From: a virus
DNA: 64,000 bases
IMG/VR virus record: IMGVR_UViG_3300037502_003029
Span: 1,052-65,051 of that record
Strand: one strand, 5' to 3'
The translations under genes were made by a program, and so were the position numbers. This document shows, one piece after another, positions 3,306 to 61,509 of this stretch; position 1 is the first letter of the stretch; the number at the start of each line of letters is the position of its first letter. A model generated the notes under the pieces. It saw nothing but the letters and a program-made list of their open reading frames with translations, had not been told where the DNA came from and made no database searches.

Positions 3306-4994
3306 TTAACCTCCGATTATGTTACCGTTTGCATTTCTATAACCTGCAGCGTTTACAGTATAGTTAGCATTCAGCGTCCTTTCAACTTGATCTTGATCTG
3401 AAGCGCATGTTACAGATTGGAAGAGTTTACCGGGTACAGAAGCAATCCACGGATTTATAATTGCTTCAAAAGATGTTTTAAACGCTGTATTAGTATTAGG
3501 TACAACAACAGTTAATCGTGTATGAATATCACTGTTATGAGCAAATACGGAAGTATCTTTAGTAACACCATCGTATTCAAAGTTGTAAATACATACAGTA
3601 TCAAAACTATCACAACCTTTAAAGATACCGTGACCCATTGCTGGAGTACGAGAACCAGGTGTAAAGTTTAAATACCTTCCAGAGAATTCATCATAACCCC
3701 AGCTAAATGGTTCGTTCATAGAAGTATCTTGTCTCAAGATATCATGAGCAACTTCGTAAACTAATCCACGAGGTATTTTGTAATCTTGGAATACAAACGT
3801 TTTGAATAAACCAATATTATTGTTGTTGTAACTAGTAGTTACGTTAATATCAGTATATAAAGTTTTTTTCCAATTATCAGGTCTATCAGCAAACTTATTG
3901 ATATCAATAGGTTTAGCAACTACCCTAATAAAGGCGCATGGAGTAACTGTAGTAGAAGTACCACAAGAACCACAATGACCTTGTTTAGTTACAGTATGAG
4001 TAGGTAATCCTGTATCGCATGGAGTAATAGGAGTAGCTTCATCACCTAACAATACGACAGGAACACAAGCGTTAATTAAAATTTTAACACCATCACAGCA
4101 AGGTTTTGCTGTACCTGTAAAAGTAGATGCGTTTAATGCATAACCTTTATCTCCTAAAGCATCGTTAATTTGTTTGATAATTTTATCTACATCAGATACT
4201 CTTGATAACGTATCATCTGCAGGATCTGTAGTTCCTACAAAAGTAGTAGTAACTTCATCCTCACCTTCTCCAATAGTAATACCAGTAATAGCAGAAATAG
4301 TATTACAACCTACACAAGCTGCATCTGCAGTAGTAAAACAGAATTGATAATCATATGGATGCAATACATATACGTGAAATGGACGATCTTTATCTTGATG
4401 CTGTCTAACCCTTCGTATTAAAGAGATATTATCTTTTAAAGAATAGTCTCTATCTTTACCATTAAATTTGTTAACAAGAGCACAAGCTACTTCTTTACAT
4501 TCTAAGGATTGTTCACAACCTTCGCAAGGATCAAAATCAAATTCTACAGTTTCAGTCCATCTTTCATAATCTCTATAATTATAGAAACGTTCTGTTTGCT
4601 CATCACGAGCTTCAATGGTCATAGAAAAAGAGTTACCTCTCTCCATACAACCAATACCTACGTCAATTATTTTAACTTGACCGCACTCAGGTGGTTCAGC
4701 AGTAACTGCATTAAGAGATGTAGCTGCAACTTTCTCAAAAGGAGCTTTTCTTAATACCATACCATCTTTTGTCTGCACACCTTGAGCTATACCCAAGTTA
4801 GGACAAGTACTAGCAGTAACACCAGCACCTACTGATACAAAAGTATCAGCATTATAGATAACGATTTGACCATCCCTAATATTAGGATTAAGTCCATAAA
4901 CATTACCTATTTCTACGAATATGGCTTGATTAGCTGGAAAAATATCTAAATTTTTATCAGCAACCAACCATCTGTCAAAAGCAATTCTAGACAT
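3306..4994 (-). CDS. Hypothetical virion structural protein (562 aa, multiple CxxC/CC clusters)
   Basis: Long ORF immediately downstream of the capsid-module genes. Confidence 0.45.
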   Translation of the reverse strand: MSRIAFDRWLVADKNLDIFPANQAIFVEIGNVYGLNPNIRDGQIVIYNADTFVSVGAGVTASTCPNLGIAQGVQTKDGMVLRKAPFEKVAATSLNAVTAEPPECGQVKIIDVGIGCMERGNSFSMTIEARDEQTERFYNYRDYERWTETVEFDFDPCEGCEQSLECKEVACALVNKFNGKDRDYSLKDNISLIRRVRQHQDKDRPFHVYVLHPYDYQFCFTTADAACVGCNTISAITGITIGEGEDEVTTTFVGTTDPADDTLSRVSDVDKIIKQINDALGDKGYALNASTFTGTAKPCCDGVKILINACVPVVLLGDEATPITPCDTGLPTHTVTKQGHCGSCGTSTTVTPCAFIRVVAKPIDINKFADRPDNWKKTLYTDINVTTSYNNNNIGLFKTFVFQDYKIPRGLVYEVAHDILRQDTSMNEPFSWGYDEFSGRYLNFTPGSRTPAMGHGIFKGCDSFDTVCIYNFEYDGVTKDTSVFAHNSDIHTRLTVVVPNTNTAFKTSFEAIINPWIASVPGKLFQSVTCASDQDQVERTLNANYTVNAAGYRNANGNIIGG

Positions 4995-28155: not shown

Positions 28156-28316
28156 TCAAAATATGTCTAAAGAAAAAGAACCCATGTTAATTACATTAAC
28201 TGAGGCAATTAGAATATATGAAGAAGAAGAGAAAAAGAAAAAAAATAAAAAAAAAAAACTCAGCTAGGGAGAGTATAAAATTTTTTGCTGACGAGACCTA
28301 GACGAATAAAGACCGA

Positions 28317-28375
28317 AGACCTATAAGAAGAATCATAACCAAAGAGTATTATAGGTCTTTTTTTAATTAACTAAC
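28317..28375 (+). terminator. 10-bp perfect stem AGACCTATAA...TTATAGGTCT (32-nt loop) plus T7; terminator or small structured RNA
   Basis: Seen in sequence. Confidence 0.4.
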
Positions 28376-28389
28376 AAAAATAACAAAAG

Positions 28390-30054
28390 ATGTTTAACAG
28401 CAAACAAACTCAACTAATTTCAAAAGATGAAACTAAACAAAAAACATCTGCTTTTGTTAATGCTGGTTTAAAAAAATCAGCAGAAACAACTTCAGGTAAT
28501 GGTGCTTTAAAATATAGCACTACTGGTAATGATTTTGTAGATCAATTTGGTAAACTTGGTTCATATAAATCACCAAGAAGTTTTGAAGATATATCTCGTG
28601 ATATGTCTACATTATGGGCTCAAAACGCCTTACTTACTGTATGTTTTGTATTTTTTATAAGAATGATAACTCGTGTAGTTCAGTTCTTTGATAATACTAA
28701 AACATCAACTGTACAACGTGGAGCAGGATTAAAACATGAAGGTATTTTTAGAATGATATGGATTCATATACATCATAAAGATACCTTTTGGAAAAACATA
28801 TCATTATGGATTTCTATAGGTAGCTGGAAAGATATTATAACCATGCTCTCTTATGATCTTCAATATAATGGATGGAAAGATAGAAAATTAGATTGGGATA
28901 GTTTTGGTAAACTAATTTTAGCAGGATTAGAAAATCCTAATACTGTTAATTTAGTAAAAAAATATTTACCACAAATAAAATCTAACTCACAATGTACAAC
29001 ATTAGAAGCGCAAGCTGATAATATAATTGCAAAGTGGATATGTTCTTTATTATTTGGTAGTAAAGAAACTCCATCTAGTTATAAAAAATATAGAAAACTT
29101 AAAGCTTCAGGTACAGCGCATCAATGGCAGCAATTAATATCTCAACGTAAGCATAATCTTATTGATTTTAATACTGTTCACGGTAGAGCACTATCTCAAT
29201 TAGTATCTAGTAAATATTTGAAAAATCAAGGTTTAGAAGCTAAATATCAGAAGTGGATAGAATCTAAACCTATAGCTAAATTTACTGGATATGTACATGA
29301 ATTGTTTCACAAACTACCTCAAACAAAATATCAAATAGATACTTTAAATGCTCAATTTAATGGATTAGTAGAAACAGCAAAAAAAAATGCTACAACTGCT
29401 ACATCTATGATTGTAGTTAGAGATACATCTTATTCTATGAGAAGTTTTGCAACTGGTACTAATATGGCATGTTATAACGTTGCAAAAGCTCTTGCTTTGT
29501 TTTTTAGTGAAATGCTACCTAATGGTGCATTTGCTAATTCATGGATTGAATTTAATTCAAGTGCAAAAATGCGTACATGGAAAGGATCTACTCCATATGA
29601 AAAATGGACAAATGATACATCCAGTTATATTGGTAGTACAAACTTTCAATCAGTAATAAAACTTTTTTGTAATATTAAAGAGCAAGGAATCTCTGAATCA
29701 GAATTTCCAACAGGTATTATCTGTATAAGTGATAGTGAATTTAATCCTGCAGGTTTAAATAAGACTAATGTACAAACCGCCTTATCTACTTTAAGAAAAG
29801 AAGGTTTTTCTGAAGAATATGTTTCTAATTTTAAAATAGTTCTTTGGAATTTACAATCTAAAGCATATGGAGGAGCAGGAAATAAATTTGAAACCTATGG
29901 TAATGTACCTAATGTTTATTACTTTAGTGGTTTTGATGGTTCTATTGTAGCATTTCTCACTGGAGTAGAAGGTAAAACTTTTACACCAAGCACTGCTGAA
30001 GAATTATTTTTAGCAGCAATGGATCAAGAGATTTTGAAAAAGATAGTAGTATAA
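28390..30054 (+). CDS. vWA/MIDAS-domain protein with Ro60/Rsr-like architecture (N-terminal helical ~330 aa, C-terminal vWA)
   Basis: MIDAS IVVRDTSYSM (DxSxS) at about aa 340 of 554; the size and domain order match TROVE+vWA Ro60 orthologues. The TROVE assignment itself is inferred and not verified. Confidence 0.4.
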   Translation: MFNSKQTQLISKDETKQKTSAFVNAGLKKSAETTSGNGALKYSTTGNDFVDQFGKLGSYKSPRSFEDISRDMSTLWAQNALLTVCFVFFIRMITRVVQFFDNTKTSTVQRGAGLKHEGIFRMIWIHIHHKDTFWKNISLWISIGSWKDIITMLSYDLQYNGWKDRKLDWDSFGKLILAGLENPNTVNLVKKYLPQIKSNSQCTTLEAQADNIIAKWICSLLFGSKETPSSYKKYRKLKASGTAHQWQQLISQRKHNLIDFNTVHGRALSQLVSSKYLKNQGLEAKYQKWIESKPIAKFTGYVHELFHKLPQTKYQIDTLNAQFNGLVETAKKNATTATSMIVVRDTSYSMRSFATGTNMACYNVAKALALFFSEMLPNGAFANSWIEFNSSAKMRTWKGSTPYEKWTNDTSSYIGSTNFQSVIKLFCNIKEQGISESEFPTGIICISDSEFNPAGLNKTNVQTALSTLRKEGFSEEYVSNFKIVLWNLQSKAYGGAGNKFETYGNVPNVYYFSGFDGSIVAFLTGVEGKTFTPSTAEELFLAAMDQEILKKIVV

Positions 30055-30355
30055 ATCAAAACGAAGTAACAGAAAGAATTGGTGTATATAGCACATCTGT
30101 TATTTTTTTACATGGGGGATAATAGGCAATCGACTAATAATAAAAAATATACAATCAGCAGTGAGAATGGTAGTAGTCTCACTATAATAACTTATACCAA
30201 ACATTAAATGGCAATTTATTTAACAAATTGACTGAAGGTGCTAAAGTAGTATCTTTGGTTTCAAGTTTTAAACCACAAGTAGCAGTTGCTGCTTGATCTT
30301 GAGCAAACAAAGGTTTTTTATAATTTCTCTATTTTAGTATTAATATAAATAGAGT

Positions 30356-30480
30356 GGTGGATGCTTAACCGTACTGGTTAGCCCTTTTTATTCTTGTAGG
30401 TAGTAAAAGAACCTTCATTAAGCTGTATAAATTGTATATCGTATATTATTAACACACGGGTTCGAGTCCCGTATCCTCCA
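30356..30480 (+). ncRNA. tRNA-like/Y-RNA-like element
   Basis: Canonical T-arm ACGGG-TTCGAGT-CCCGT at 30456-30472 and acceptor 3' strand ATCCTCC+A. The only complementary 5' strand is GGTGGAT, 111 nt upstream. An internal hairpin CTTTT...AAAAG is present. Confidence 0.35.
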
Positions 30481-30505
30481 CAAATAAGCAAATTATAGTT
30501 TTTAT

Positions 30506-30578
30506 TGACTCATAGTGTAATGGTTTAGCACCACAGTTTTTGAAGCTGTTAGTTTAGGTTCAAATCCTAATGAGTCAT
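30506..30578 (+). tRNA. tRNA-Gln (anticodon TTG)
   Basis: Acceptor TGACTCA/TGAGTCA, D-stem GTGT/GCAC, anticodon stem ACAGT/GCTGT with loop TTTTGAA, T-arm TTAGG-TTCAAAT-CCTAA. Confidence 0.8.
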
Positions 30579-30599
30579 CACTTTATTAAATTTTAAATC

Positions 30600-32711: not shown

Positions 32712-32780
32712 GGAAATCTTACAGCAAATTAATAACAATTTTGTTCGACCATATTTAAATTAAATTTTATATAGATTTCC
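32712..32780 (+). ncRNA. Structured RNA unit A (terminal helix GGAAATCT/AGATTTCC; ACAGCAAATTAATA box)
   Basis: Perfect 8-bp inverted repeat closing a 69-nt unit; conserved box directly 3' of the 5' strand. Confidence 0.5.
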
Positions 32781-32785
32781 GATAA

Positions 32786-32850
32786 GAACAGTTACAGCAA
32801 ATTAATACAAGCACCAAACTTTTAATTTGACACGCTAATTAATACTGTTC
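32786..32850 (+). ncRNA. Structured RNA unit B (GAACAGT/ACTGTTC; ACAGCAAATTAATA box)
   Basis: As unit A; GATAAG linker on both sides. Confidence 0.5.
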
Positions 32851-32855
32851 TGATA

Positions 32856-32964
32856 AGTACACACACAGCAAATATTAAAAAAAACGGATCAACAACATTA
32901 ATTTCTATTTAATACTTGTAAATCCTAGTTGGTTCAAATCCAGCAGGTTGAAATAAAGTGTACT
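32856..32964 (+). ncRNA. Structured RNA unit C (AGTACAC/GTGTACT) containing anticodon-like hairpin ATTTA-ATACTTG-TAAAT and T-arm GTTGG-TTCAAAT-CCAGC
   Basis: Seen in sequence. Confidence 0.5.
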
Positions 32965-32968
32965 GATA

Positions 32969-33104
32969 AAGATAGTAACAGCAACTTTTATGTTAAAGAA
33001 GATCTGTGGGTCACAAGTTCAAATCTTGTATTCTTATGTAAATAAGAATTAGCTCAGTTGGTAGAGCAATGGAATAAAACAAAATACTATCTTGTTTTTT
33101 TTTT
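32969..33104 (+). ncRNA. Structured RNA unit D (AAGATAGTA/TACTATCTT, then T10) with circularly permuted tRNA module: T-arm + acceptor 3' strand ATTCTTA, 6-nt spacer, acceptor 5' strand TAAGAAT + canonical D-arm AGCTCAGTTGGTAGAGC
   Basis: Seen in sequence; both acceptor strands are perfectly complementary but in reversed gene order. Confidence 0.5.
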
Positions 33105-33628: not shown

Positions 33629-33744
33629 GGGGGCAGATGGAAATTTTAATCAGTATTGATTAATAACAGCAAATTATAATTAAATAAATAGCACAAATTG
33701 TCACTTTGTAGTTCATTACATCCTGAAAGTAATTGCCCCCGCCA
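33629..33744 (+). ncRNA. Structured RNA unit U1 (GGGGGCA ... TGCCCCC-G-CCA: acceptor-like stem with encoded CCA; internal hairpin TTAATCA/TGATTAA; ACAGCAAATTATAA box)
   Basis: Seen in sequence. Confidence 0.45.
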
Positions 33745-33746
33745 CA

Positions 33747-33820
33747 AGATATCATACAGCAAATTAAAAATATTTAAACACAAAAATAGGGATTTTGCAA
33801 GTTTTTATAAAATGATATCT
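33747..33820 (+). ncRNA. Structured RNA unit U2 (AGATATCAT/ATGATATCT; ACAGCAAATTAAAAA box)
   Basis: Perfect 9-bp terminal helix. Confidence 0.5.
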
Positions 33821-33828
33821 GTTTAATA

Positions 33829-33926
33829 AATTCTCATACAGCAAGTATATATATAAAAAAATCTTTTTCTAAACAAAAGCGAAGCCTGGATGGTGGGTAT
33901 TAAGGGTTCGATTCCCTACGAGAATT
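33829..33926 (+). ncRNA. Structured RNA unit U3 (AATTCTCAT/ACGAGAATT, 8 of 9 bp) containing T-arm-like AGGG-TTCGATT-CCCT
   Basis: Seen in sequence. Confidence 0.45.
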
Positions 33927-33931
33927 GATAA

Positions 33932-33992
33932 GAGTACATACAGCAAATTTAAAAACACCCTGATTTATAATTTGGTTATGTAAAATGTACTC
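33932..33992 (+). ncRNA. Structured RNA unit U4 (GAGTACAT/ATGTACTC; ACAGCAAATTTAAAAA box)
   Basis: Perfect 8-bp terminal helix. Confidence 0.5.
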
Positions 33993-33997
33993 TGATA

Positions 33998-34070
33998 AGA
34001 AGCGAAACAGCAAATTAATTATAGGACTAGACTTTTAATCTAACATTCTAAATAATCGCTTCTGTTTTTT
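33998..34070 (+). ncRNA. Structured RNA unit U5 (AGAAGCGA/TCGCTTCT, then T6) with anticodon-like loop CTTTTAA on stem TAGA/TCTA
   Basis: Seen in sequence. Confidence 0.5.
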
Positions 34071-34588: not shown

Positions 34589-34915
34589 ATGAAGCATAAA
34601 GTATTAAAAAAACATTTAAAAGAAGGAAATATATTACCAATATATATAAATTGGCAAGAACAACAAGGTTTTAGAGGTAATGCAGTATTATTAAAACGAT
34701 TGGTAAGTAGAGAACCACCAGAAGAAGATAAAATTTATTTATTTAAAGAAATAGGTGATATAATAAAAGATCGCTTAAAAGATAAAATAAATATACTTTA
34801 TTCTTATCAGTGGTGGAGAATTGAATTTATTGATGGTCCAAATTCAGGATTTGTAACTGCTGTAAAAATAGCATATTACAAAAGAACTTTTTGGCAAACA
34901 GAAGAAGAAGAATAA
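34589..34915 (+). CDS. Hypothetical protein
   Basis: ORF track. Confidence 0.4.
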   Translation: MKHKVLKKHLKEGNILPIYINWQEQQGFRGNAVLLKRLVSREPPEEDKIYLFKEIGDIIKDRLKDKINILYSYQWWRIEFIDGPNSGFVTAVKIAYYKRTFWQTEEEE

Positions 34916-34917
34916 CT

Positions 34918-36063
34918 ATGACAATAAGATTTTTTGATTTAGAAATATATCCAAACTTATTTGTAGCTGTATTTTATAATCCTTATGATAAAGAATATAC
35001 AACTTTTACATTATGGGAGCATAATGGATTAGCACAAATAAATGAATTACCGCAATTAAAAAAATATCTTAAAGATAATTCAGATATTTATTTTTGTGGA
35101 TATAATTCTTTAGGATATGATATGCAAATTCTTACAGAAATTATAAAAAAGAATTTGTGTACTACAGACCAGATTAAGCAATTTAATGATTACTTAATAT
35201 CACAGGAATGGCCTATATATAGAGAAAAAGATTTATGTGGTAAAACACTAGATTTAATGCTTATCAATAATTATGGACCAAAAAGCGCTAAAAGTACATC
35301 ATTAAAAAAACTTGAGTTTAATCTTAGAAAAAAGAAAATACAAGATTTACCATATCATTTTAATGATTTAATAACAAAAGAATCTGAAGTAAATGATATT
35401 ATAAAATATTGTAAGTATGACGTAGAAGTTACTGTAGATGTATTTAGATTGAGTAAAGAACTTATTAATTTAAGATTAGAATTTGAACCTATAATTGGAG
35501 AATCTGTATTAAATTCACCTGAACCTGATTTAGCTAAAAAGTTTGTTTATAAAGAATTAGCTAATTATATGGATATTGATGTTAATACTTTTAAGAAACT
35601 AAGAACTTATCATGAAGAAATAAAAGTTAAAGATTTAATATTACCTTTTATTAACTTTACAAAAGAACATTATAAAGAAGTATTAGATTATTATAACGGA
35701 CTAGTTTTAAATGCTACTAATAAATCAGTATTAGGAAATCAAAAAGTAATAAACTTAAAAAATGCAGTAAACAAAACTATTAATTATGATGGTTTAGAAA
35801 CTGTATACGGTAGTGGAGGTATTCACGCTTCAGTAGAAGCTGGTGTATATTCAGAGTCTGAAGAATATATGATTACTACTGCTGATTTTACATCTTATTA
35901 TCCTCATTTACAGTTTATACATGATTGTATAGCAGGACATATACCATCTGAATTATATTCTAAATTAGTTAAATATCTTTTTGCAGAAAGAAAAAAACAT
36001 GCTAAAGGAACAAGCTTAAACTATGTATATAAAATTATGATTAATTTACTTTACGGTGGTTAA
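34918..36063 (+). CDS. Family-B DNA polymerase, exon 1 (3'-5' exonuclease domain through polymerase motif B); alternative start at 34891
   Basis: Exo I FDLEIYPN, Exo II GYNSLGYDMQIL (YGYNxxxFDxxxL), Exo III YCKYDVEV. The ORF ends exactly at motif B, KIMINLLYGG (Kx3NSxYG). Confidence 0.55.
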   Translation: MTIRFFDLEIYPNLFVAVFYNPYDKEYTTFTLWEHNGLAQINELPQLKKYLKDNSDIYFCGYNSLGYDMQILTEIIKKNLCTTDQIKQFNDYLISQEWPIYREKDLCGKTLDLMLINNYGPKSAKSTSLKKLEFNLRKKKIQDLPYHFNDLITKESEVNDIIKYCKYDVEVTVDVFRLSKELINLRLEFEPIIGESVLNSPEPDLAKKFVYKELANYMDIDVNTFKKLRTYHEEIKVKDLILPFINFTKEHYKEVLDYYNGLVLNATNKSVLGNQKVINLKNAVNKTINYDGLETVYGSGGIHASVEAGVYSESEEYMITTADFTSYYPHLQFIHDCIAGHIPSELYSKLVKYLFAERKKHAKGTSLNYVYKIMINLLYGG

Positions 36064-37035
36064 TATTATGTTAATTTCTTATTATTATTATTATATTTAT
36101 AATTATTTTTTATGCATATTTGTATAAAAATATATAAACGAGAAAATAATATAATAGATAGATACAGCCGCTTATTAGAGCAATCTAATATGAAAAACTC
36201 CTTAAATTCGGTGGACGCTCCAGAACAGAGTAATACCGAGCCAAGCATTAATTTAAATGATTAATGAAGGTGTAACGACTAGAGAAATAATTAAAACAAT
36301 TTAAAATCACAAATTAGTGTATTATGCAAAATAGAGAAAAATCATTGTTAATTGCTATGTGCATCGGAGACGGTCACATAGTAAAAGATCCTAATTCCAA
36401 ATCATGTTCGCTTATAATAAGACATTCTACAAAACAAATAGAATGGATAGAAAAAAAACATGAATTGATAGTTTCTATATTAGGAGGGTATGTTCCTAAA
36501 TTAACTAAATTTAATAATTCAGGTTATCCTGGAATTAGATTTAGTAAAAGTTCAAAATACTTTAGGGTATTAAGAAAATGGATATATCCAAATAATAAAA
36601 AAAATATATCAAGATATATATTAAATAAACTTGATGAAGAAGGTATTGCTATATGGTATATGGATGACGGTGGATTGAGTGCTAAAAGAAGAAATGGGAA
36701 AATACATGCTTATAATCTGTTTTTGAATACTCATCTTACTATTGAAGAAAATCAAATAATAATCAATTATTTTAAAGAAGTTTGGGATATTAATTTTCAG
36801 CAAGTAAAAAATAAAGGTCATTATAGATTAAGAATGGGTACTAAAGAAATTAGAAAATTTATACCATTAATTTCAAAATACATCATTCCTTCTATGCAAT
36901 ATAAGATAACAATGAATTTTAATTGAAATTATTTTTCCACGAAAAAGGAGCATCCTACAGGGATGAAGATATAGTCTGGACTGCATATATAGTTCATAAA
37001 TAAAAATGCAGAACTACAAGATAAAGAGCTTGTAG
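36064..37035 (+). other. Intervening sequence in the DNA polymerase gene (candidate group I intron carrying a homing-endonuclease ORF); the 3' boundary lies somewhere in 37036..37113
   Basis: The polymerase frame stops immediately after motif B. A LAGLIDADG ORF sits in another frame, and the polymerase reading frame reopens at 37036. Confidence 0.45.
36324..36926 (+). CDS. LAGLIDADG-family homing endonuclease
   Basis: Two LAGLIDADG-like motifs, LIAMCIGDGHI and IAIWYMDDGGL. Confidence 0.55.
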   Translation: MQNREKSLLIAMCIGDGHIVKDPNSKSCSLIIRHSTKQIEWIEKKHELIVSILGGYVPKLTKFNNSGYPGIRFSKSSKYFRVLRKWIYPNNKKNISRYILNKLDEEGIAIWYMDDGGLSAKRRNGKIHAYNLFLNTHLTIEENQIIINYFKEVWDINFQQVKNKGHYRLRMGTKEIRKFIPLISKYIIPSMQYKITMNFN

Positions 37036-59146: not shown

Positions 59147-60205
59147 ATGAATCTTAATCAACTTAAAAAAAGTGGATGGATAATTCATGAATGCATAGTA
59201 GGTTCACATTTATATAACACTAACAAAGAAGGTAGTGATGTTGATGTAAAAGGTGTTTATATACAACCTACAAAAGAAATATTAAAAGGTAATTATATTG
59301 AACAAATAAGCGATGATAAACAAGATCATACTTATTATGAAATTGGTAGATTTATAGAGTTATTATGTAAAGCTAACCCTAATATGTTAGATATTATAGG
59401 AAGCGATCAGATACTTTATACTACAAATTTATGGAAACAATATTTTTCTAATCCTCAAGAATATATAACAAAAAAAATAAAACATACTTTTAATGGATAT
59501 GCACATAGTCAGATTCAAAAAGCTAAAGGTATGAATAAAAAAACTAATTGGGAAAAATCCAGAATGGAACGTAAAACACCATTAGATTTTTGTTATATAC
59601 TTTTAAATAATGAAAGTTCTATTAAAATTAAAGATTTTTTTGAAATACCAGAAAACGAATTTAATAAATTTAGACATTGGGGGTTAGCGTCTATAAATAA
59701 TTTTCCTGATTGTTATGCTATGTATTATTTTAAAGAAGGAAACGCAGGAATATGTAATAAAGAGTCTAATGATATTTGTTTAACATCTATACCTAAAAAC
59801 TATAATAGAAAGTATATATTACGTTTTGATCGGAATGCTTATTCTACTCATTGTAAAGATTATAGAGAATATCAAGAATGGTTAGAAAAACGTAATCCTC
59901 TTAGATATCAAGATAATGCTAAAGTAGATGATGAATATGATACAAAAAATATGATGCATTGTGTTAGATTATTGCTTACATGTAAAGATTTACTTTTAGG
60001 TAAAGGTTTACTATTAAAGCGACCTGAAAGAGATTTATTATTAAGTATTAGAAATGGTGAAGTTTCATATAATAGCATCATAGAGTTATCTGAATCATTA
60101 AAATTAGAAGTTGAAAGTTTATATGAAACTTCTAAATTACCAAGAGAAGTAAATATTAATATGGTTAAAGAGTTATTATTAAAAATCAGATTAAATCATT
60201 TATGA
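59147..60205 (+). CDS. Pol-beta superfamily nucleotidyltransferase domain protein
   Basis: VGSHLYNTNKEGSDVDVKGV matches hG[GS]x(9-13)DxD. Confidence 0.45.
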   Translation: MNLNQLKKSGWIIHECIVGSHLYNTNKEGSDVDVKGVYIQPTKEILKGNYIEQISDDKQDHTYYEIGRFIELLCKANPNMLDIIGSDQILYTTNLWKQYFSNPQEYITKKIKHTFNGYAHSQIQKAKGMNKKTNWEKSRMERKTPLDFCYILLNNESSIKIKDFFEIPENEFNKFRHWGLASINNFPDCYAMYYFKEGNAGICNKESNDICLTSIPKNYNRKYILRFDRNAYSTHCKDYREYQEWLEKRNPLRYQDNAKVDDEYDTKNMMHCVRLLLTCKDLLLGKGLLLKRPERDLLLSIRNGEVSYNSIIELSESLKLEVESLYETSKLPREVNINMVKELLLKIRLNHL

Positions 60206-61509
60206 ATTTACAAATAGCGAAAGATAGCGAAAATTATGCAGGAATAGTTTGTAAAGTATCTAATATAATTCCTATAGAAGGTGCTGATAAAATACAACTT
60301 GCAATAGTAGAAGGTAATAGTGTAGTAGTTAGTAAATCTACTAAAGTAGGAGATTTAGGTCTTTTCTTTTGTTCTGGAACGCAGTTATCTGAAGATTATT
60401 GTAAACTTAACAATTTATATGATGATCCTAATAAAAATTTAGATACTTCTGAAAAAGGTTATATATCTTCAAGACAAAGAAGAGTAAAAGCTATAAAACT
60501 CAGAGGAGTTATATCTAATGGTATGTTTATGCCTATTCATTCTTTGGATTATATATCTGAAGATGTATTTAATTTAAAAGAAGGTCAGTCATTTACCTCT
60601 ATAAATGGGTTAGAAGTATGTAGAAAGTTTATAGTTGTAGAACAAAAAGGTCCTGCTAATACACTAGCAAAACCTAAAAGTCCTAAGTTTAATAGATTAA
60701 TTGATAACCAATTTATTCTTCATAATAATACATCTAATTTAAGACATAATATTAAAAATATCGAACCAGAGGATATTATAGGAATTCATTACAAAAAGCA
60801 TGGTACAAGTGCTGTTTTTGCTAATATTCCTACGTTACGAAAATTAAGTTGGTGGGAAAGATTTTTAATGAAAATAGGTATTAAAATTAACACAACTGTA
60901 TATGATATAATATACTCTTCTAGAACTGTAATTAAAAATAAAAATATTAATTTAGAAAGCGGAGAAGGGTATTATGGAGAAGATATATGGAAAGTTGTTA
61001 AAAATGAGATATCTCATTTAATACCTAAAAATTGGACTTTATATGGTGAGATTATAGGATTTATGCCTTCAGGTCAATCTATACAAAAAAAGTATGATTA
61101 TGGTTGCAAATTAGGAGAACATAAATTTTATGTATATAAAATATCAGTAAATAATCCTGACGGTAAAGTAATTTATCTAACAGATTTACAAATAAAAGAA
61201 TTTTGTGATTCTGTTGGTTTATTATATTCTGATACTTTTATGTACTATGGTAAAGCTAAAGATCTATTTCCTATTCGTAAAAATGGTAATATAAAAACTT
61301 GGAGACAAAACTTTTTAGAGTTTTTAGAAAAAACTTATAACGATAAAGATTGTTATATGTGTATTAATAAAGTACCAGAAGAAGGAATAGTGTTGCGTAA
61401 AGAGTCTTTATTTAGTTATGAAGCTTATAAATTAAAAAGTAAAGGGTTTATATTACAAGAATCTAAACAACAAGAAGATAATGAGTACAACATCGAAGAT
61501 GAAGCTTAG
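60202..61509 (+). CDS. ATP-dependent RNA ligase (Rnl2/Rnl5-like nucleotidyltransferase domain preceded by an N-terminal domain)
   Basis: Motif I KKHGTS (KxHGT[NS]) at about aa 199; Rnl-like downstream motifs. Confidence 0.5.
   Translation: MNLQIAKDSENYAGIVCKVSNIIPIEGADKIQLAIVEGNSVVVSKSTKVGDLGLFFCSGTQLSEDYCKLNNLYDDPNKNLDTSEKGYISSRQRRVKAIKLRGVISNGMFMPIHSLDYISEDVFNLKEGQSFTSINGLEVCRKFIVVEQKGPANTLAKPKSPKFNRLIDNQFILHNNTSNLRHNIKNIEPEDIIGIHYKKHGTSAVFANIPTLRKLSWWERFLMKIGIKINTTVYDIIYSSRTVIKNKNINLESGEGYYGEDIWKVVKNEISHLIPKNWTLYGEIIGFMPSGQSIQKKYDYGCKLGEHKFYVYKISVNNPDGKVIYLTDLQIKEFCDSVGLLYSDTFMYYGKAKDLFPIRKNGNIKTWRQNFLEFLEKTYNDKDCYMCINKVPEEGIVLRKESLFSYEAYKLKSKGFILQESKQQEDNEYNIEDEA

What the first reader, a model, noticed from the sequence alone, without database searches (positions are those of the whole stretch)
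28390..30054. 554-aa protein with C-terminal vWA/MIDAS and Ro60/Rsr-like architecture, upstream of the RNA array
The MIDAS motif DTSYSM lies at about aa 340, after a ~330-aa predicted helical N-terminal region. Ro60/Rsr proteins are ~530 aa with an N-terminal TROVE helical repeat domain and a C-terminal vWA. Bacterial and mycobacteriophage rsr genes are flanked by Y-RNA genes, and a tRNA-like structured RNA (30356..30480) lies 300 nt downstream of this gene. The TROVE assignment is inferred only from size and architecture.
Basis: inference. Interest (0 to 1): 0.7.

Follow-up and report, generated by a model that had tools for sequence, protein, structure and literature searches.

The report
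Phage Ro60-like protein with RNA arrays
This phage gene encodes a distant structural relative of Ro60, an RNA-quality-control protein, and it travels with tandem arrays of small tRNA-mimicking RNAs that are probably its partners, pointing to a widespread protein-RNA system that has not been described.

Summary

The likely partner RNAs lie further downstream, in two tandem arrays (32712-33093 and 33630-34063). Each of the nine units has a covarying closing helix (AG...CU) followed by the motif (U/A)ACAGCAA and a variable insert. Unit A4 (32969-33093) is a YrlA-type Y RNA with a permuted tRNA-like module.

The same units flank the gene in 70 of 73 related loci (342 on the gene's strand, 57 opposite). 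They also flank it in cultured Leptolyngbya, Bacillus and Listeria phages and on Bacteroidota chromosomes, but they are absent beside canonical Ro60 genes. A further unit overlaps the gene's own start codon.

The units also match Rfam's Dictyostelium Class I RNA model.

Verdict: a Ro60-Y RNA-like system built from a different protein family and a new RNA handle. Binding is inferred, not shown.

The parts
28390..30054 (+). Gene for a 554-aa Ro60-like protein of the DUF2828/DUF7788 family (PHROG 850). The helical-repeat N-terminal domain is about aa 45-331 (nt 28522-29382). The Ro60-type vWA domain is aa 335-554 (nt 29392-30051).
   Evidence: ORF. PF25043 E 2.8e-9. phrog_850 E 3.5e-30. Homologs carry PF11443 + PF25043. 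AF2 model pLDDT 83.2. Ro60 is the best PDB match. hhalign to the Ro60 vWA 95.9%.
29422..29436 (+). MIDAS DxSxS motif (D345-T-S347-Y-S349). The further MIDAS residues are T417 and D448.
   Evidence: Invariant in alignments A1 and A3. hhalign places it on the Ro60 DVSASM motif.
28388..28449 (+). Stem + ACAGCAA unit overlapping the gene's own start codon. AG-AUGUUU pairs with AAACAU-CU, and the codons AUG UUU AAC AGC AAA spell the motif. Candidate autoregulatory site.
   Evidence: Rfam Class I model 20.8 bits at 28389-28450. The same unit occurs in 11 of 69 related loci.
28257..28344 (+). Candidate RAGATH-1-type hammerhead ribozyme in the 5' leader. Below threshold.
   Evidence: RF03152 49 bits (gathering score 56.3), E 7.8e-6 in 13 kb. 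The pseudoknot CUAGG/CCUAG covaries relative to the consensus. Not found at the gathering score in 15 related loci.
30114..30480 (+). Phage tmRNA (ssrA). CCA is not encoded. The tag ORF is 30210-30296 and ends ...VAVAA*.
   Evidence: RF00023 full-length match, 23.4 bits. Acceptor stem with G3:U70, P2, PK1 and tag frame. Orthologous tmRNAs above the gathering score in L003, L006 and L026.
30506..30579 (+). tRNA-Gln(UUG)
   Evidence: ARAGORN. Rfam 62.1 bits.
32712..32780 (+). Array A, unit A1: short stem + ACAGCAA RNA (helix GGAAAUCU/AGAUUUCC).
   Evidence: RF01414 19.7 bits.
32785..32851 (+). Array A, unit A2: helix AGAACAGU/ACUGUUCU. The insert carries a tRNA-Lys(UUU) anticodon-loop-like hairpin (CAAA-CUUUUAA-UUUG).
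   Evidence: RF01414 18.6 bits.
32856..32964 (+). Array A, unit A3: helix AGUACAC/GUGUACU. The insert has a T-arm-like hairpin (32928-32944).
32969..33093 (+). Array A, unit A4: YrlA-type Y RNA. Closing helix AAGAUAGUA/UACUAUCUU, ACAGCAA at 32978, permuted tRNA-like module (T-arm 33013-33029, closed acceptor-like hairpin 33030-33050, D-arm 33051-33067), then a U-run.
   Evidence: RF02553 28.2 bits, full length, E 0.012 in 13 kb and 4e-4 in the intergenic region. The MFE fold recovers every element, z -2.74. Homologous modules in related loci.
33630..34063 (+). Array B, five units. B1 33630-33739 (atypical). B2 33747-33820. B3 33829-33926 (T-arm next to the 3' strand, an acceptor/T minihelix mimic). 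B4 33931-33993. B5 33998-34063, followed by a U-run.

Best explanation
The ORF encodes a Ro60-like RNA-binding protein. It is a divergent relative, or at least a close structural analogue, of Ro60/Rsr: a helical-repeat N-terminal domain joined to a Ro60-type vWA domain with an intact MIDAS site.

It most likely forms ribonucleoprotein particles with the small RNAs encoded beside it. Each RNA has a common 'handle': a 7-9-bp closing helix, usually 5'-AG...CU-3', followed directly by single-stranded (U/A)ACAGCAA. The handle is the predicted protein-binding site. It stands in the position of the Y RNA stem that Ro60 binds, but has a different sequence.

The handle displays a variable insert that often mimics part of a tRNA: a whole permuted T-arm/acceptor/D-arm module (YrlA-like, unit A4), a T-arm minihelix (A3, B3), or a tRNA-Lys(UUU)-like anticodon stem-loop (A2).

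By analogy with Ro60-Y RNA particles, which tether PNPase (and which the Thermus phage Ro60 uses to dampen host PNPase), the particle probably recruits or sequesters host tRNA- or RNA-processing or RNA-cleaving enzymes during infection. It sits in a phage module that also supplies a tmRNA, tRNAs and, elsewhere in the genome, an RNA ligase.

A copy of the handle enclosing the gene's own start codon suggests the protein represses its own translation.

Shown here: the fold similarity, vWA homology, RNA structures, covariation, and gene-RNA linkage across distant taxa. Inferred: protein-RNA binding, the role of the handle, enzyme recruitment or decoy function, and autoregulation.
For: Protein.
- AF2 model pLDDT 83.2, pTM 0.85.
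- Foldseek top 7 hits are all Ro60/Rsr/phage Ro60, E 2.6e-7 to 9e-5, aligned over the full length.
- hhalign to a Ro60 profile 95.9%, E 5e-9, across the vWA domain.
- Pfam vWA_Ro60 hits in 8 of 45 members.
- MIDAS residues invariant.
- PHROG 850 is labelled 'RNA-binding protein'.
- An amoebozoan-transcriptome homolog is fused to a 2H/2'-5' RNA-ligase-type domain.

RNA.
- YrlA model hit at 32989-33097.
- The YrlA model also hits the RNA next to the gene in 6 of 6 related loci tested, at 29-42 bits. The module beside the canonical Ro60 gene of mycobacteriophage Colt scores 33 bits.
- The permuted tRNA-like module is found in about 31 of 73 loci, never on the opposite strand, mostly 70-600 nt from the gene.
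- Closing helices differ in sequence but stay complementary: 222 distinct helices in 278 unique units.
- 342 complete units on the gene's strand against 57 on the opposite strand; 70 of 73 loci have at least one.
- 45% of same-strand motifs have an in-register helix, against 13% opposite.
- The spacing between units peaks at exactly 4 nt.
- The motif starts at unit position 10 in 86 of 90 short units.

Linkage across deep divergence.
- Units flank homologs in Leptolyngbya phage Lbo-JY46 (47% identity), Bacillus phage Tsamsa (~26%) and Listeria phage LMTA-94 (~24%), and in Lewinella and Chitinophagales chromosomes.
- Canonical Ro60 phage loci lack ACAGCAA units next to the Ro gene; Colt and Forza carry the tRNA-like module.

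Context parallels canonical Ro60.
- Gordonia phage Forza has Ro, then tRNA, tmRNA and a tRNA array.
- Listeria phage LMTA-94 has DUF2828, then RtcB-type and other RNA ligases, like the Salmonella rsr-yrlBA-rtcBA operon.

Inserts.
- tRNA-type hairpins (5-bp stem, 7-nt U33/R37 loop) number 111, against 7.6 +/- 2.8 in shuffles. About 39 are T-loops and 20 are Lys anticodon loops.

Start-codon unit.
- Present in 11 of 69 loci. From the opposite-strand rate, about 0.05 would be expected by chance.
Against: - No binding data exist, so the protein-RNA partnership rests on co-occurrence.
- The N-terminal domain shows no sequence similarity to TROVE.
- Modelled alone, the N-terminal domain is no closer to Ro60 than to other helical repeats.
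- Global TM-scores to Ro60 are only 0.37-0.51.
- The conserved GNCGAA-type Ro-binding motif of YrlA is replaced by ACAGCAA.
- All Rfam hits to YrlA, tmRNA, hammerhead and Class I in the window are below gathering scores.
- In the window, the arrays lie 2.7-4 kb from the gene, with five ORFs between them.
- Expression and processing of the units are unknown. Promoter and terminator scans were uninformative.
- The start-codon unit is present in only a minority of loci, and its 5' strand cannot covary because it encodes Met-Phe.
Confidence: 0.6

Rival explanations
1. tRNA/tmRNA maintenance scaffold. The protein mainly acts on the phage's own tRNAs and tmRNA, by quality control or by repair together with RNA ligases after cleavage by host anticodon nucleases. 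The ACAGCAA RNAs would then be regulators or adaptors rather than the main ligands.
For: - The gene sits beside tmRNA and tRNA genes in the window and beside tRNA arrays or tmRNAs in 27 of 55 related loci.
- Tsamsa and LMTA-94 place it next to arrays of 19 and 13 tRNAs, and LMTA-94 has RtcB and another RNA ligase just downstream.
- The window encodes an RNA ligase at 60202-61509.
- Iyer et al. 2021 (PMC7824862) describe TROVE proteins in jumbo phages as RNA-repair platforms.
Against: - The chromosomal Bacteroidota homologs have the units but no tRNA array, tmRNA or ligase nearby.
- The units are linked to the gene more tightly than tRNAs are: 70 of 73 loci against 27 of 55.
- This overlaps with the best explanation rather than excluding it.
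Confidence: 0.2
2. A generic vWA/MIDAS protein-interaction module (for example a chaperone cofactor or assembly factor), whose resemblance to Ro60 is convergent. Under this reading, the neighbouring RNAs are bound by something else or act alone.
For: - vWA domains are widespread protein-protein modules.
- The N-terminal domain alone matches only generic helical repeats.
- There is no TROVE signal.
- Jumbo phages do use MoxR-vWA chaperone pairs (PMC7824862).
Against: - The vWA is specifically Ro60-type, not generic.
- The whole-protein fold matches Ro60 well above any vWA-only protein.
- No AAA+/MoxR partner is adjacent.
- Co-occurrence of the gene with one RNA class, from about 24% identity phage homologs through to bacterial chromosomes, is hard to explain without a functional link.
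Confidence: 0.1
3. The repeated stem + ACAGCAA elements are not stable RNA partners. Instead they are cis-acting transcript-processing or termination signals, or a selfish repeat family that happens to accumulate in the tRNA/ncRNA region of these phages.
For: - The units are head-to-tail with fixed GAUA-type linkers, as processing sites would be.
- The last units of both window arrays end in U-runs.
- Expression has not been tested.
Against: - The inserts contain tRNA-like modules recognised by the YrlA model and tRNA-type hairpins far above chance.
- Helices covary while the motif stays fixed, which is typical of a structured RNA with a protein-binding site.
- Single units with their own U-run terminators flank the chromosomal genes.
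- Canonical Ro60 phage loci with equally large tRNA arrays lack the units.
Confidence: 0.08

Closest known systems
Ro60/Rsr-Y RNA ribonucleoproteins, including phage Ro60 (Thermus phage phiLo, PDB 9l5y; 'Ro-like RNA binding protein' of actinophages) and YrlA RNAs
   Same: - Protein of about 530-550 aa with a helical-repeat domain plus a C-terminal vWA domain carrying a MIDAS site.
- Best structural match in the PDB. The vWA domains are homologous.
- The partner-type RNA has paired 5' and 3' ends and a circularly permuted tRNA-like module (T-arm, closed acceptor hairpin, D-arm), as in YrlA (PMC4201824).
- The gene lies next to tRNA arrays and a tmRNA, as in Gordonia phage Forza.
- RNA ligase neighbours recall rsr-yrlBA-rtcBA.
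   Different: - The N-terminal domain is Pfam DUF2828, with no detectable TROVE similarity.
- The RNA handle carries ACAGCAA instead of the GNCGAA-type Ro-binding element.
- The RNAs come in tandem arrays of up to about ten units with diverse inserts.
- Different hosts: 114 phage records (Bacillus, Listeria, Enterococcus, Vibrio, jumbo phages) against 358 records, mostly actinophages, for canonical Ro60.
Pfam DUF2828 (PF11443) + DUF7788 (PF25043); PHROG 850 'RNA-binding protein'
   Same: The window protein is a member: PF25043 above its cut-off, full-length PHROG 850 match, and relatives carry both domains.
   Different: The family has no described function in the searchable literature. Neither the associated RNA arrays nor the Ro60-like fold is part of its description.
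Dictyostelid Class I RNAs (Rfam RF01414; PMC7919456)
   Same: - About 60-nt RNAs with a short terminal stem joining the 5' and 3' ends.
- A conserved motif next to the 5' half of the stem whose near-invariant positions (U3, C6, C9, A10, A11) fit the phage consensus UUACAGCAA.
- A variable remainder, a conserved G-C pair near the end of the stem, a 3' ...CUGU-type end, and clustered genes.
- The Rfam model hits phage units full-length and in register, with a best score of 39.3 bits against a gathering score of 41.5.
   Different: - They are eukaryotic nuclear genes with their own promoter element, and are reported as restricted to Dictyostelia.
- The only known direct binder is an RRM protein (Rnp1A/Cibp).
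- No link to a DUF2828 protein is known, and I could not test whether dictyostelids encode one.
- The phage units mostly score below the model's threshold.
tmRNA (ssrA), including phage-encoded tmRNAs
   Same: tRNA-like domain with G3:U70, P2, PK1, and a tag ORF ending in ...AA followed by a stop. Same position relative to the Ro-like gene as in L003, L006, L026 and L063, and as in phage Forza.
   Different: Very A+U-rich and divergent: 23.4 bits, below the gathering score of 47, and missed by ARAGORN. CCA is not encoded.

Membership tests
Ro60/Rsr (TROVE + vWA) | TROVE domain detectable by sequence profile (Pfam PF05731) | tested here: not met
   No PF05731 hit at E <= 10 in the window protein or at E <= 1 in 45 family representatives. 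hhalign of the N-terminal halves against a 6-sequence Ro60 profile gives E 0.56. The profiles were shallow (Neff 4.5 and 2.6).
Ro60/Rsr (TROVE + vWA) | Ro60-type C-terminal vWA domain with a MIDAS site | tested here: met
   hhalign 95.9%, E 5e-9, query 326-513 against Ro60 355-524. PF25045 vWA_Ro60 hits in 8 of 45 members. D345, S347, S349, T417 and D448 are invariant.
Ro60/Rsr (TROVE + vWA) | Ring of HEAT-like repeats closed by the vWA domain | tested here: inconclusive
Ro60/Rsr (TROVE + vWA) | Y RNA gene(s) with a tRNA-like module encoded nearby | tested here: met
   YrlA-type RNA at 32969-33093. The same module is found in about 31 of 73 related loci, mostly within 600 nt of the gene on the same strand. 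The YrlA model hits 6 of 6 loci tested.
Ro60/Rsr (TROVE + vWA) | Conserved Ro-binding element of Y RNAs (bulged stem; GNCGAA(N)G in YrlA) | tested here: not met
   The equivalent position carries (U/A)ACAGCAA. The Rfam alignment shows the Ro-binding helix region largely deleted or mismatched.
Ro60/Rsr (TROVE + vWA) | Binds Y RNA and misfolded RNA; tethers PNPase | not testable with these tools
   Needs biochemistry.
DUF2828/DUF7788 (PF11443 + PF25043; PHROG 850) | Profile matches above the curated thresholds | tested here: met
   PF25043 scores 37 bits against a cut-off of 27.1. phrog_850 E 3.5e-30 over aa 27-528. PF11443 is found in 40 of 45 relatives, though it falls below detection in the window protein itself.
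YrlA (Rfam RF02553), for unit A4 | Score at or above the gathering threshold (69 bits) | tested here: not met
   28.2 bits. Related loci score 29-42 bits. The module beside the canonical Ro60 gene of mycobacteriophage Colt scores only 33.2 bits.
YrlA (Rfam RF02553), for unit A4 | Paired 5'/3' ends enclosing a permuted T-arm, closed acceptor hairpin and D-arm | tested here: met
   Read directly from the sequence and from the MFE fold.
tmRNA (RF00023), for 30114-30480 | tRNA-Ala-like acceptor/T domain, tag ORF ending in a degron, pseudoknots; gathering score 47 bits | tested here: inconclusive
   The structural and coding hallmarks are met. The model score is 23.4 bits with E 3e-6, and ARAGORN is negative.
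Dictyostelid Class I RNA (RF01414), for the short units | Terminal stem plus an 11-nt motif next to its 5' half; gathering score 41.5 bits | tested here: inconclusive
   The architecture and the 9 conserved motif bases match. Scores are 18.6-20.8 bits in the window and up to 39.3 bits in Lbo-JY46. All are below the gathering score.

The most novel reading that the evidence does not exclude
The stem + ACAGCAA handle is the recognition element of the whole DUF2828/DUF7788 protein family, including its eukaryotic members. Under this reading, the Class I RNAs of dictyostelid amoebae (abundant, developmentally regulated, thought unique to that group, mechanism unknown) are the same RNA class: Y-RNA-like partners of a Ro60-like protein, possibly acquired from bacteria or phages.

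Within phages, the arrays would be a display system that presents tRNA-part mimics as decoys or adaptors for host tRNA-targeting enzymes. Examples are the whole tRNA-like module, the T-arm minihelix, and the tRNA-Lys(UUU) anticodon loop. From my own knowledge, tRNA-Lys is the substrate of anticodon nucleases such as PrrC and of the PARIS effector.
Probability: 0.2. Interest if true: 0.92.

Novelty: new variant of a known kind. Interest (0 to 1): 0.8.

Why it matters
It would give a function to a large domain-of-unknown-function family: more than 2,400 clusters at 50% identity. The family occurs in phages of Firmicutes, cyanobacteria, Proteobacteria and Bacteroidota, on bacterial chromosomes, and, according to papers that list the domain, in plants.

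It would also reveal a second lineage of Ro60-Y RNA-type particles that uses its own RNA code.

The tandem arrays define a new class of phage small RNAs: one constant handle carrying exchangeable tRNA-like inserts. That leads to a testable idea, namely that phages use them to recruit or decoy host RNases and tRNA-targeting defences.

The system is present in cultured, tractable phages (Listeria P100-type LMTA-94, Bacillus Tsamsa, Leptolyngbya Lbo-JY46), so binding and knockout experiments can be done now.

The match to Dictyostelium Class I RNAs offers a concrete hypothesis for a long-standing orphan RNA class.

Tried and rejected
1. **Direct sequence searches for TROVE/Ro60.** Pfam, NCBIfam, and phmmer/hmmsearch against PDB sequences found no TROVE and no Ro60.
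2. **hhalign with low-diversity profiles** aligned only the MIDAS segment. Broader profiles were needed.
3. **N-terminal halves alone** and the **N-terminal-only model against the PDB** gave no specific Ro60 signal. I therefore do not file the N-terminus as TROVE.
ARAGORN with introns found nothing. It is part of a tmRNA.
5. **Nucleotide conservation of the window's intergenic regions** in related loci: none by blastn. The comparison had to rely on structure and motif.
6. **Lower ARAGORN thresholds for the tmRNA** gave only spurious permuted calls.
7. **My first strict regular expressions** for the tmRNA and for the permuted module lost true hits and were rewritten. Eight hits that were simply two adjacent tRNAs were removed.
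8. **MAFFT alignment of the Y-like RNAs** misaligned the 3' strand. I did not build a covariance model or use the count of structure pairs. The covariation statistics come from my own scripts, with opposite-strand, non-cognate and shuffle controls.
9. **Promoter and terminator scans** were no different from shuffles.
10. **AFDB50 fold search** for eukaryotic relatives was unavailable. Searching from the amoebozoan homolog returned mostly bacterial relatives, so contamination cannot be excluded.
11. **Literature on DUF2828/DUF7788** holds nothing functional. The paper on Class I RNA-binding proteins (Avesson 2011) is not in the library.
Full report
**1. Observation**

DTSYSM lies at aa 345-350. 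D345, S347 and S349, together with T417 and D448, form a complete MIDAS set. These residues are invariant in 34 close homologs and in 45 representatives down to 27% identity.

The gene is conserved far beyond chance. There are 2,496 hits among the 90%-identity clusters and 2,471 clusters at 50% identity, of which 1,175 have E <= 1e-10.

The window is a low-GC (about 27%) tailed phage. Major head, portal and large terminase genes are on the minus strand. DNA polymerase, helicase, thymidylate synthase and an RNA ligase are on the plus strand with this gene.

**2. What the protein is**

*Sequence searches.* Pfam finds only DUF7788 (PF25043, aa 340-523, E 2.8e-9). Most relatives also carry DUF2828 (PF11443) at the N-terminus. 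PHROGs matches the full length to phrog_850, labelled 'RNA-binding protein' (E 3.5e-30). NCBIfam and PDB sequence searches give nothing.

*Whole-protein structure.* An AlphaFold2 model built on 34 homologs is confident (pLDDT 83.2, pTM 0.85). It has helices from about aa 48 to 331, then a vWA fold.
- Foldseek against the PDB returns Ro60 or Rsr as the seven best matches: frog, human, Deinococcus, and Thermus phage phiLo. E-values are 2.6e-7 to 9e-5 with full-length alignments. Isolated vWA domains follow.

*Profile comparison.* I verified Ro60 and Rsr sequences against the PDB and added three phage Ro60 proteins. The family profile then aligns to a Ro60 profile at 95.9% probability (E 5e-9). 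The match covers only the vWA half, and includes the shared DxSxSM, G(G/S)T(D/N) and C-terminal GFD motifs. Eight of 45 members hit Pfam's Ro60-specific vWA model. None hits TROVE.

*Conclusion on the protein.* The vWA domain is homologous to that of Ro60, and the two-domain architecture is most like Ro60. The claim that the N-terminus is a TROVE domain is not established.

**3.

A permissive Rfam scan matches the full tmRNA model at 30115-30483 (23.4 bits, E 3e-6 in 13 kb). The hallmarks are all present:
- a 7-bp acceptor stem GGGGGAU/AUCCUCC with G3:U70;
- the long P2 helix and PK1;
- a tag frame resuming at GGC (30210) that encodes GNLFNKLTEGAKVVSLVSSFKPQVAVAA*.

Orthologous tmRNAs above threshold occupy the same position in related phages. 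The '30356-30480 tRNA-like RNA' is therefore the tmRNA's 3' third. tRNA-Gln follows at 30506-30579.

**4. The Y-RNA-like partner and the arrays**

*The YrlA-type RNA.* A wider Rfam scan found a full-length, sub-threshold YrlA match at 32989-33097 (28.2 bits; E 0.012 in 13 kb, 4e-4 within its 434-nt intergenic region). The sequence shows the defining YrlA topology, a circularly permuted tRNA-like module:
- T-arm ACAAG-UUCAAAU-CUUGU;
- closed acceptor-like hairpin;
- canonical D-arm GCUC-AGUUGGUA-GAGC.

A 9-bp helix, AAGAUAGUA/UACUAUCUU, encloses the module and is followed by a U-run. The MFE fold recovers every element (z -2.74).

*The same module in related loci.* Among 73 related loci from IMG/VR, the module occurs in about 31. 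It is never on the opposite strand, and it usually lies 70-600 nt downstream or 100-340 nt upstream of the gene. It also sits next to the canonical Ro60 genes of phages Colt and Forza, which serve as positive controls. The Rfam YrlA model hits it in 6 of 6 related loci tested (29-42 bits), while the Colt module scores 33 bits.

*The common unit.* Aligning the flanks revealed one shared architecture: 5'-AG + 5-7 nt (helix strand), then (U/A)ACAGCAA, then a variable insert, then the complementary strand ending in CU-3'. A further unit usually follows after 4 nt (GAUA).

The window has nine such units in two arrays:

| Unit | Coordinates | Note |
|---|---|---|
| A1 | 32712-32780 | short unit |
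| A2 | 32785-32851 | tRNA-Lys-like anticodon hairpin |
| A3 | 32856-32964 | T-arm-like hairpin |
| A4 | 32969-33093 | YrlA-like |
| B1 | 33630-33739 | atypical |
| B2 | 33747-33820 | short unit |
| B3 | 33829-33926 | T-arm next to the 3' strand |
| B4 | 33931-33993 | short unit |
| B5 | 33998-34063 | short unit, then U-run |

*Statistics across loci.*
- 342 complete units on the gene's strand against 57 on the opposite strand; 70 of 73 loci have at least one; 135 lie within 1 kb downstream of the gene.
- 45% of same-strand motifs have an in-register helix of at least 7 bp, against 13% on the opposite strand.
- 278 unique units use 222 different helix sequences.
- The distance to the next unit peaks at exactly 4 nt.
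- The motif starts at position 10 in 86 of 90 short units.
- Cognate helices average 8.1 bp, against 5.9 bp for non-cognate pairings.

**5. The pairing of this protein family with this RNA class is deep**

| Locus | Protein identity to window | Units |
|---|---|---|
| Leptolyngbya phage Lbo-JY46 | 47% | five, straight after the stop codon |
| Bacillus phage Tsamsa | ~26% | two between its 19-tRNA array and the gene, plus a YrlA-like unit inside the array |
| Listeria phage LMTA-94 | ~24% | three in the unannotated gap upstream; RtcB-type and other RNA ligases just downstream |
| Lewinella, Chitinophagales chromosomes | about 47-50% to the Rhizamoeba homolog P0230 | single units with their own U-runs flank the gene |
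| Canonical Ro60 phages (Colt, Forza, Angela) | - | no ACAGCAA units next to the Ro gene; Colt and Forza carry the tRNA-like module |

Sources. The ACAGCAA handle is therefore specific to the DUF2828-type protein.

Canonical Ro60 occupies the same genomic niche in actinophages. In Forza the order is Ro, tRNA, tmRNA, then more than 25 further tRNAs. The two protein types are found in largely different host groups.

**6. Further features**

*Start-codon unit.* A unit encloses the gene's own start codon (28388-28449). AG-AUGUUU pairs with AAACAU-CU, and Met-Phe-Asn-Ser-Lys is encoded by AUG UUU AAC AGC AAA. The same arrangement occurs in 11 of 69 loci, spanning 41-69% protein identity. About 0.05 would be expected by chance, based on the opposite-strand rate. 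This suggests autoregulation by ligand mimicry in part of the family.

*Inserts.* tRNA-type hairpins (5-bp stem, 7-nt loop with U33 and R37) are strongly enriched in the inserts: 111, against 7.6 +/- 2.8 in shuffles. About 39 are T-loops, and 20 have the loop CUUUUAA or CUCUUAA of tRNA-Lys.

*Fusion.* One amoebozoan-transcriptome homolog is fused to a 2H/2'-5' RNA-ligase-type domain.

**7. Mechanism**

*Best-supported reading.* This is a Ro60-like RNP in which the protein binds the helix + ACAGCAA handle. The inserts, which mimic tRNA parts, engage host RNA enzymes. The model for this is the way Y RNA tethers PNPase to Ro60, and the way Thermus phage Ro60 with its Yrl RNAs binds and attenuates host PNPase (PMC12135203; PMC4201824).

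*Shown here:* fold similarity, vWA homology, RNA structure, covariation, and linkage.

*Inferred:* binding, what the inserts target, and autoregulation.

*Rivals:*
- a tRNA/tmRNA repair scaffold (0.2);
- a generic vWA interaction protein (0.1);
- cis-acting or selfish repeats (0.08).

**8. Relation to Dictyostelium Class I RNAs**

The Rfam model for these RNAs hits phage units full-length, in exact register and only on the correct strand: 39.3 bits in Lbo-JY46 (gathering score 41.5), then 32.0, 30.7, 26.2 and four more at 23-25 bits. In the window the scores are 18.6-20.8 bits.

The published description fits the short phage units closely (PMC7919456):
- about 60 nt;
- a 6-bp stem joining the ends;
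- an 11-nt motif next to the 5' half of the stem, with U3, C6, C9, A10 and A11 near-invariant;
- a variable remainder;
- a 3' CUGU;
- clustered genes.

Whether dictyostelids encode a DUF2828 protein could not be tested, so this remains a hypothesis.

**9. Novelty**

The protein family is catalogued but has no described function. PHROGs' label shows that an RNA-binding guess already exists. I found no report of the RNA arrays, of their handle, of their linkage to this family, of the start-codon mimic, or of the Class I resemblance.

I class this as a new variant of a known kind of system, the Ro60-Y RNA particle.

Noticed in passing
window 28257-28344 (+): Candidate RAGATH-1-type hammerhead ribozyme 46 nt upstream of the start codon: 49 bits against a gathering score of 56.3, E 7.8e-6 in 13 kb. 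The pseudoknot (CUAGG/CCUAG) covaries relative to the family consensus. However, positions 15.1/16.1 would be U-A rather than A-U, and the 3' part overlaps a long hairpin with a U-run (28316-28370).
   Followed up: partly
window 30114-30480 (+): Divergent, A+U-rich phage tmRNA missed by ARAGORN. Its 28-codon tag ends in VAVAA. CCA is not encoded.
   Followed up: yes
window 32785-32851 and related units (alignment A7; L078 7021-7037 and 7184-7200): A conserved sub-family of units carries a hairpin whose loop, CUUUUAA, is identical to a tRNA-Lys(UUU) anticodon loop. It may be a decoy for nucleases that target tRNA-Lys. 20 Lys-type loops were found among 298 units.
   Followed up: partly
window 34891-36926 (+): The DNA polymerase ORF matches only positions 51-412 of a 663-position PHROG profile and is followed by a LAGLIDADG homing endonuclease (36324-36926). 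The polymerase gene looks split by a mobile element.
   Followed up: no
window 60202-61509 (+): RNA ligase (phrog_968, E 3e-59) in the same phage, which fits an RNA-repair theme.
   Followed up: no
L063 6191-6755: A tmRNA match (29 bits) is followed, and slightly overlapped, by a strong group I intron match (91.9 bits). This is possibly an intron-interrupted phage tmRNA gene.
   Followed up: no
L080 (Listeria phage LMTA-94) 1682-1780 and 3997-5068: A 'drum' RNA scoring above its gathering score (50.2 bits) lies inside the tRNA array. A 1-kb stretch with no annotation contains an unannotated tRNA (4335-4409, 60 bits).
   Followed up: no
P0230 (Rhizamoeba saxonica transcriptome); L081, L082: P0230 is a family member fused to PF13563 (2'-5' RNA ligase/2H phosphoesterase). 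Close homologs lie on Bacteroidota chromosomes (Lewinella sp. 4G2 and a Chitinophagales MAG). The amoebozoan sequences may be contamination.
   Followed up: partly
L079 (Bacillus phage Tsamsa) 4209-4331: An unannotated YrlA-like RNA (ACAGCAA handle plus a permuted tRNA-like module) sits between tRNA-Glu and tRNA-Ile in the annotated tRNA array of a cultured phage.
   Followed up: partly
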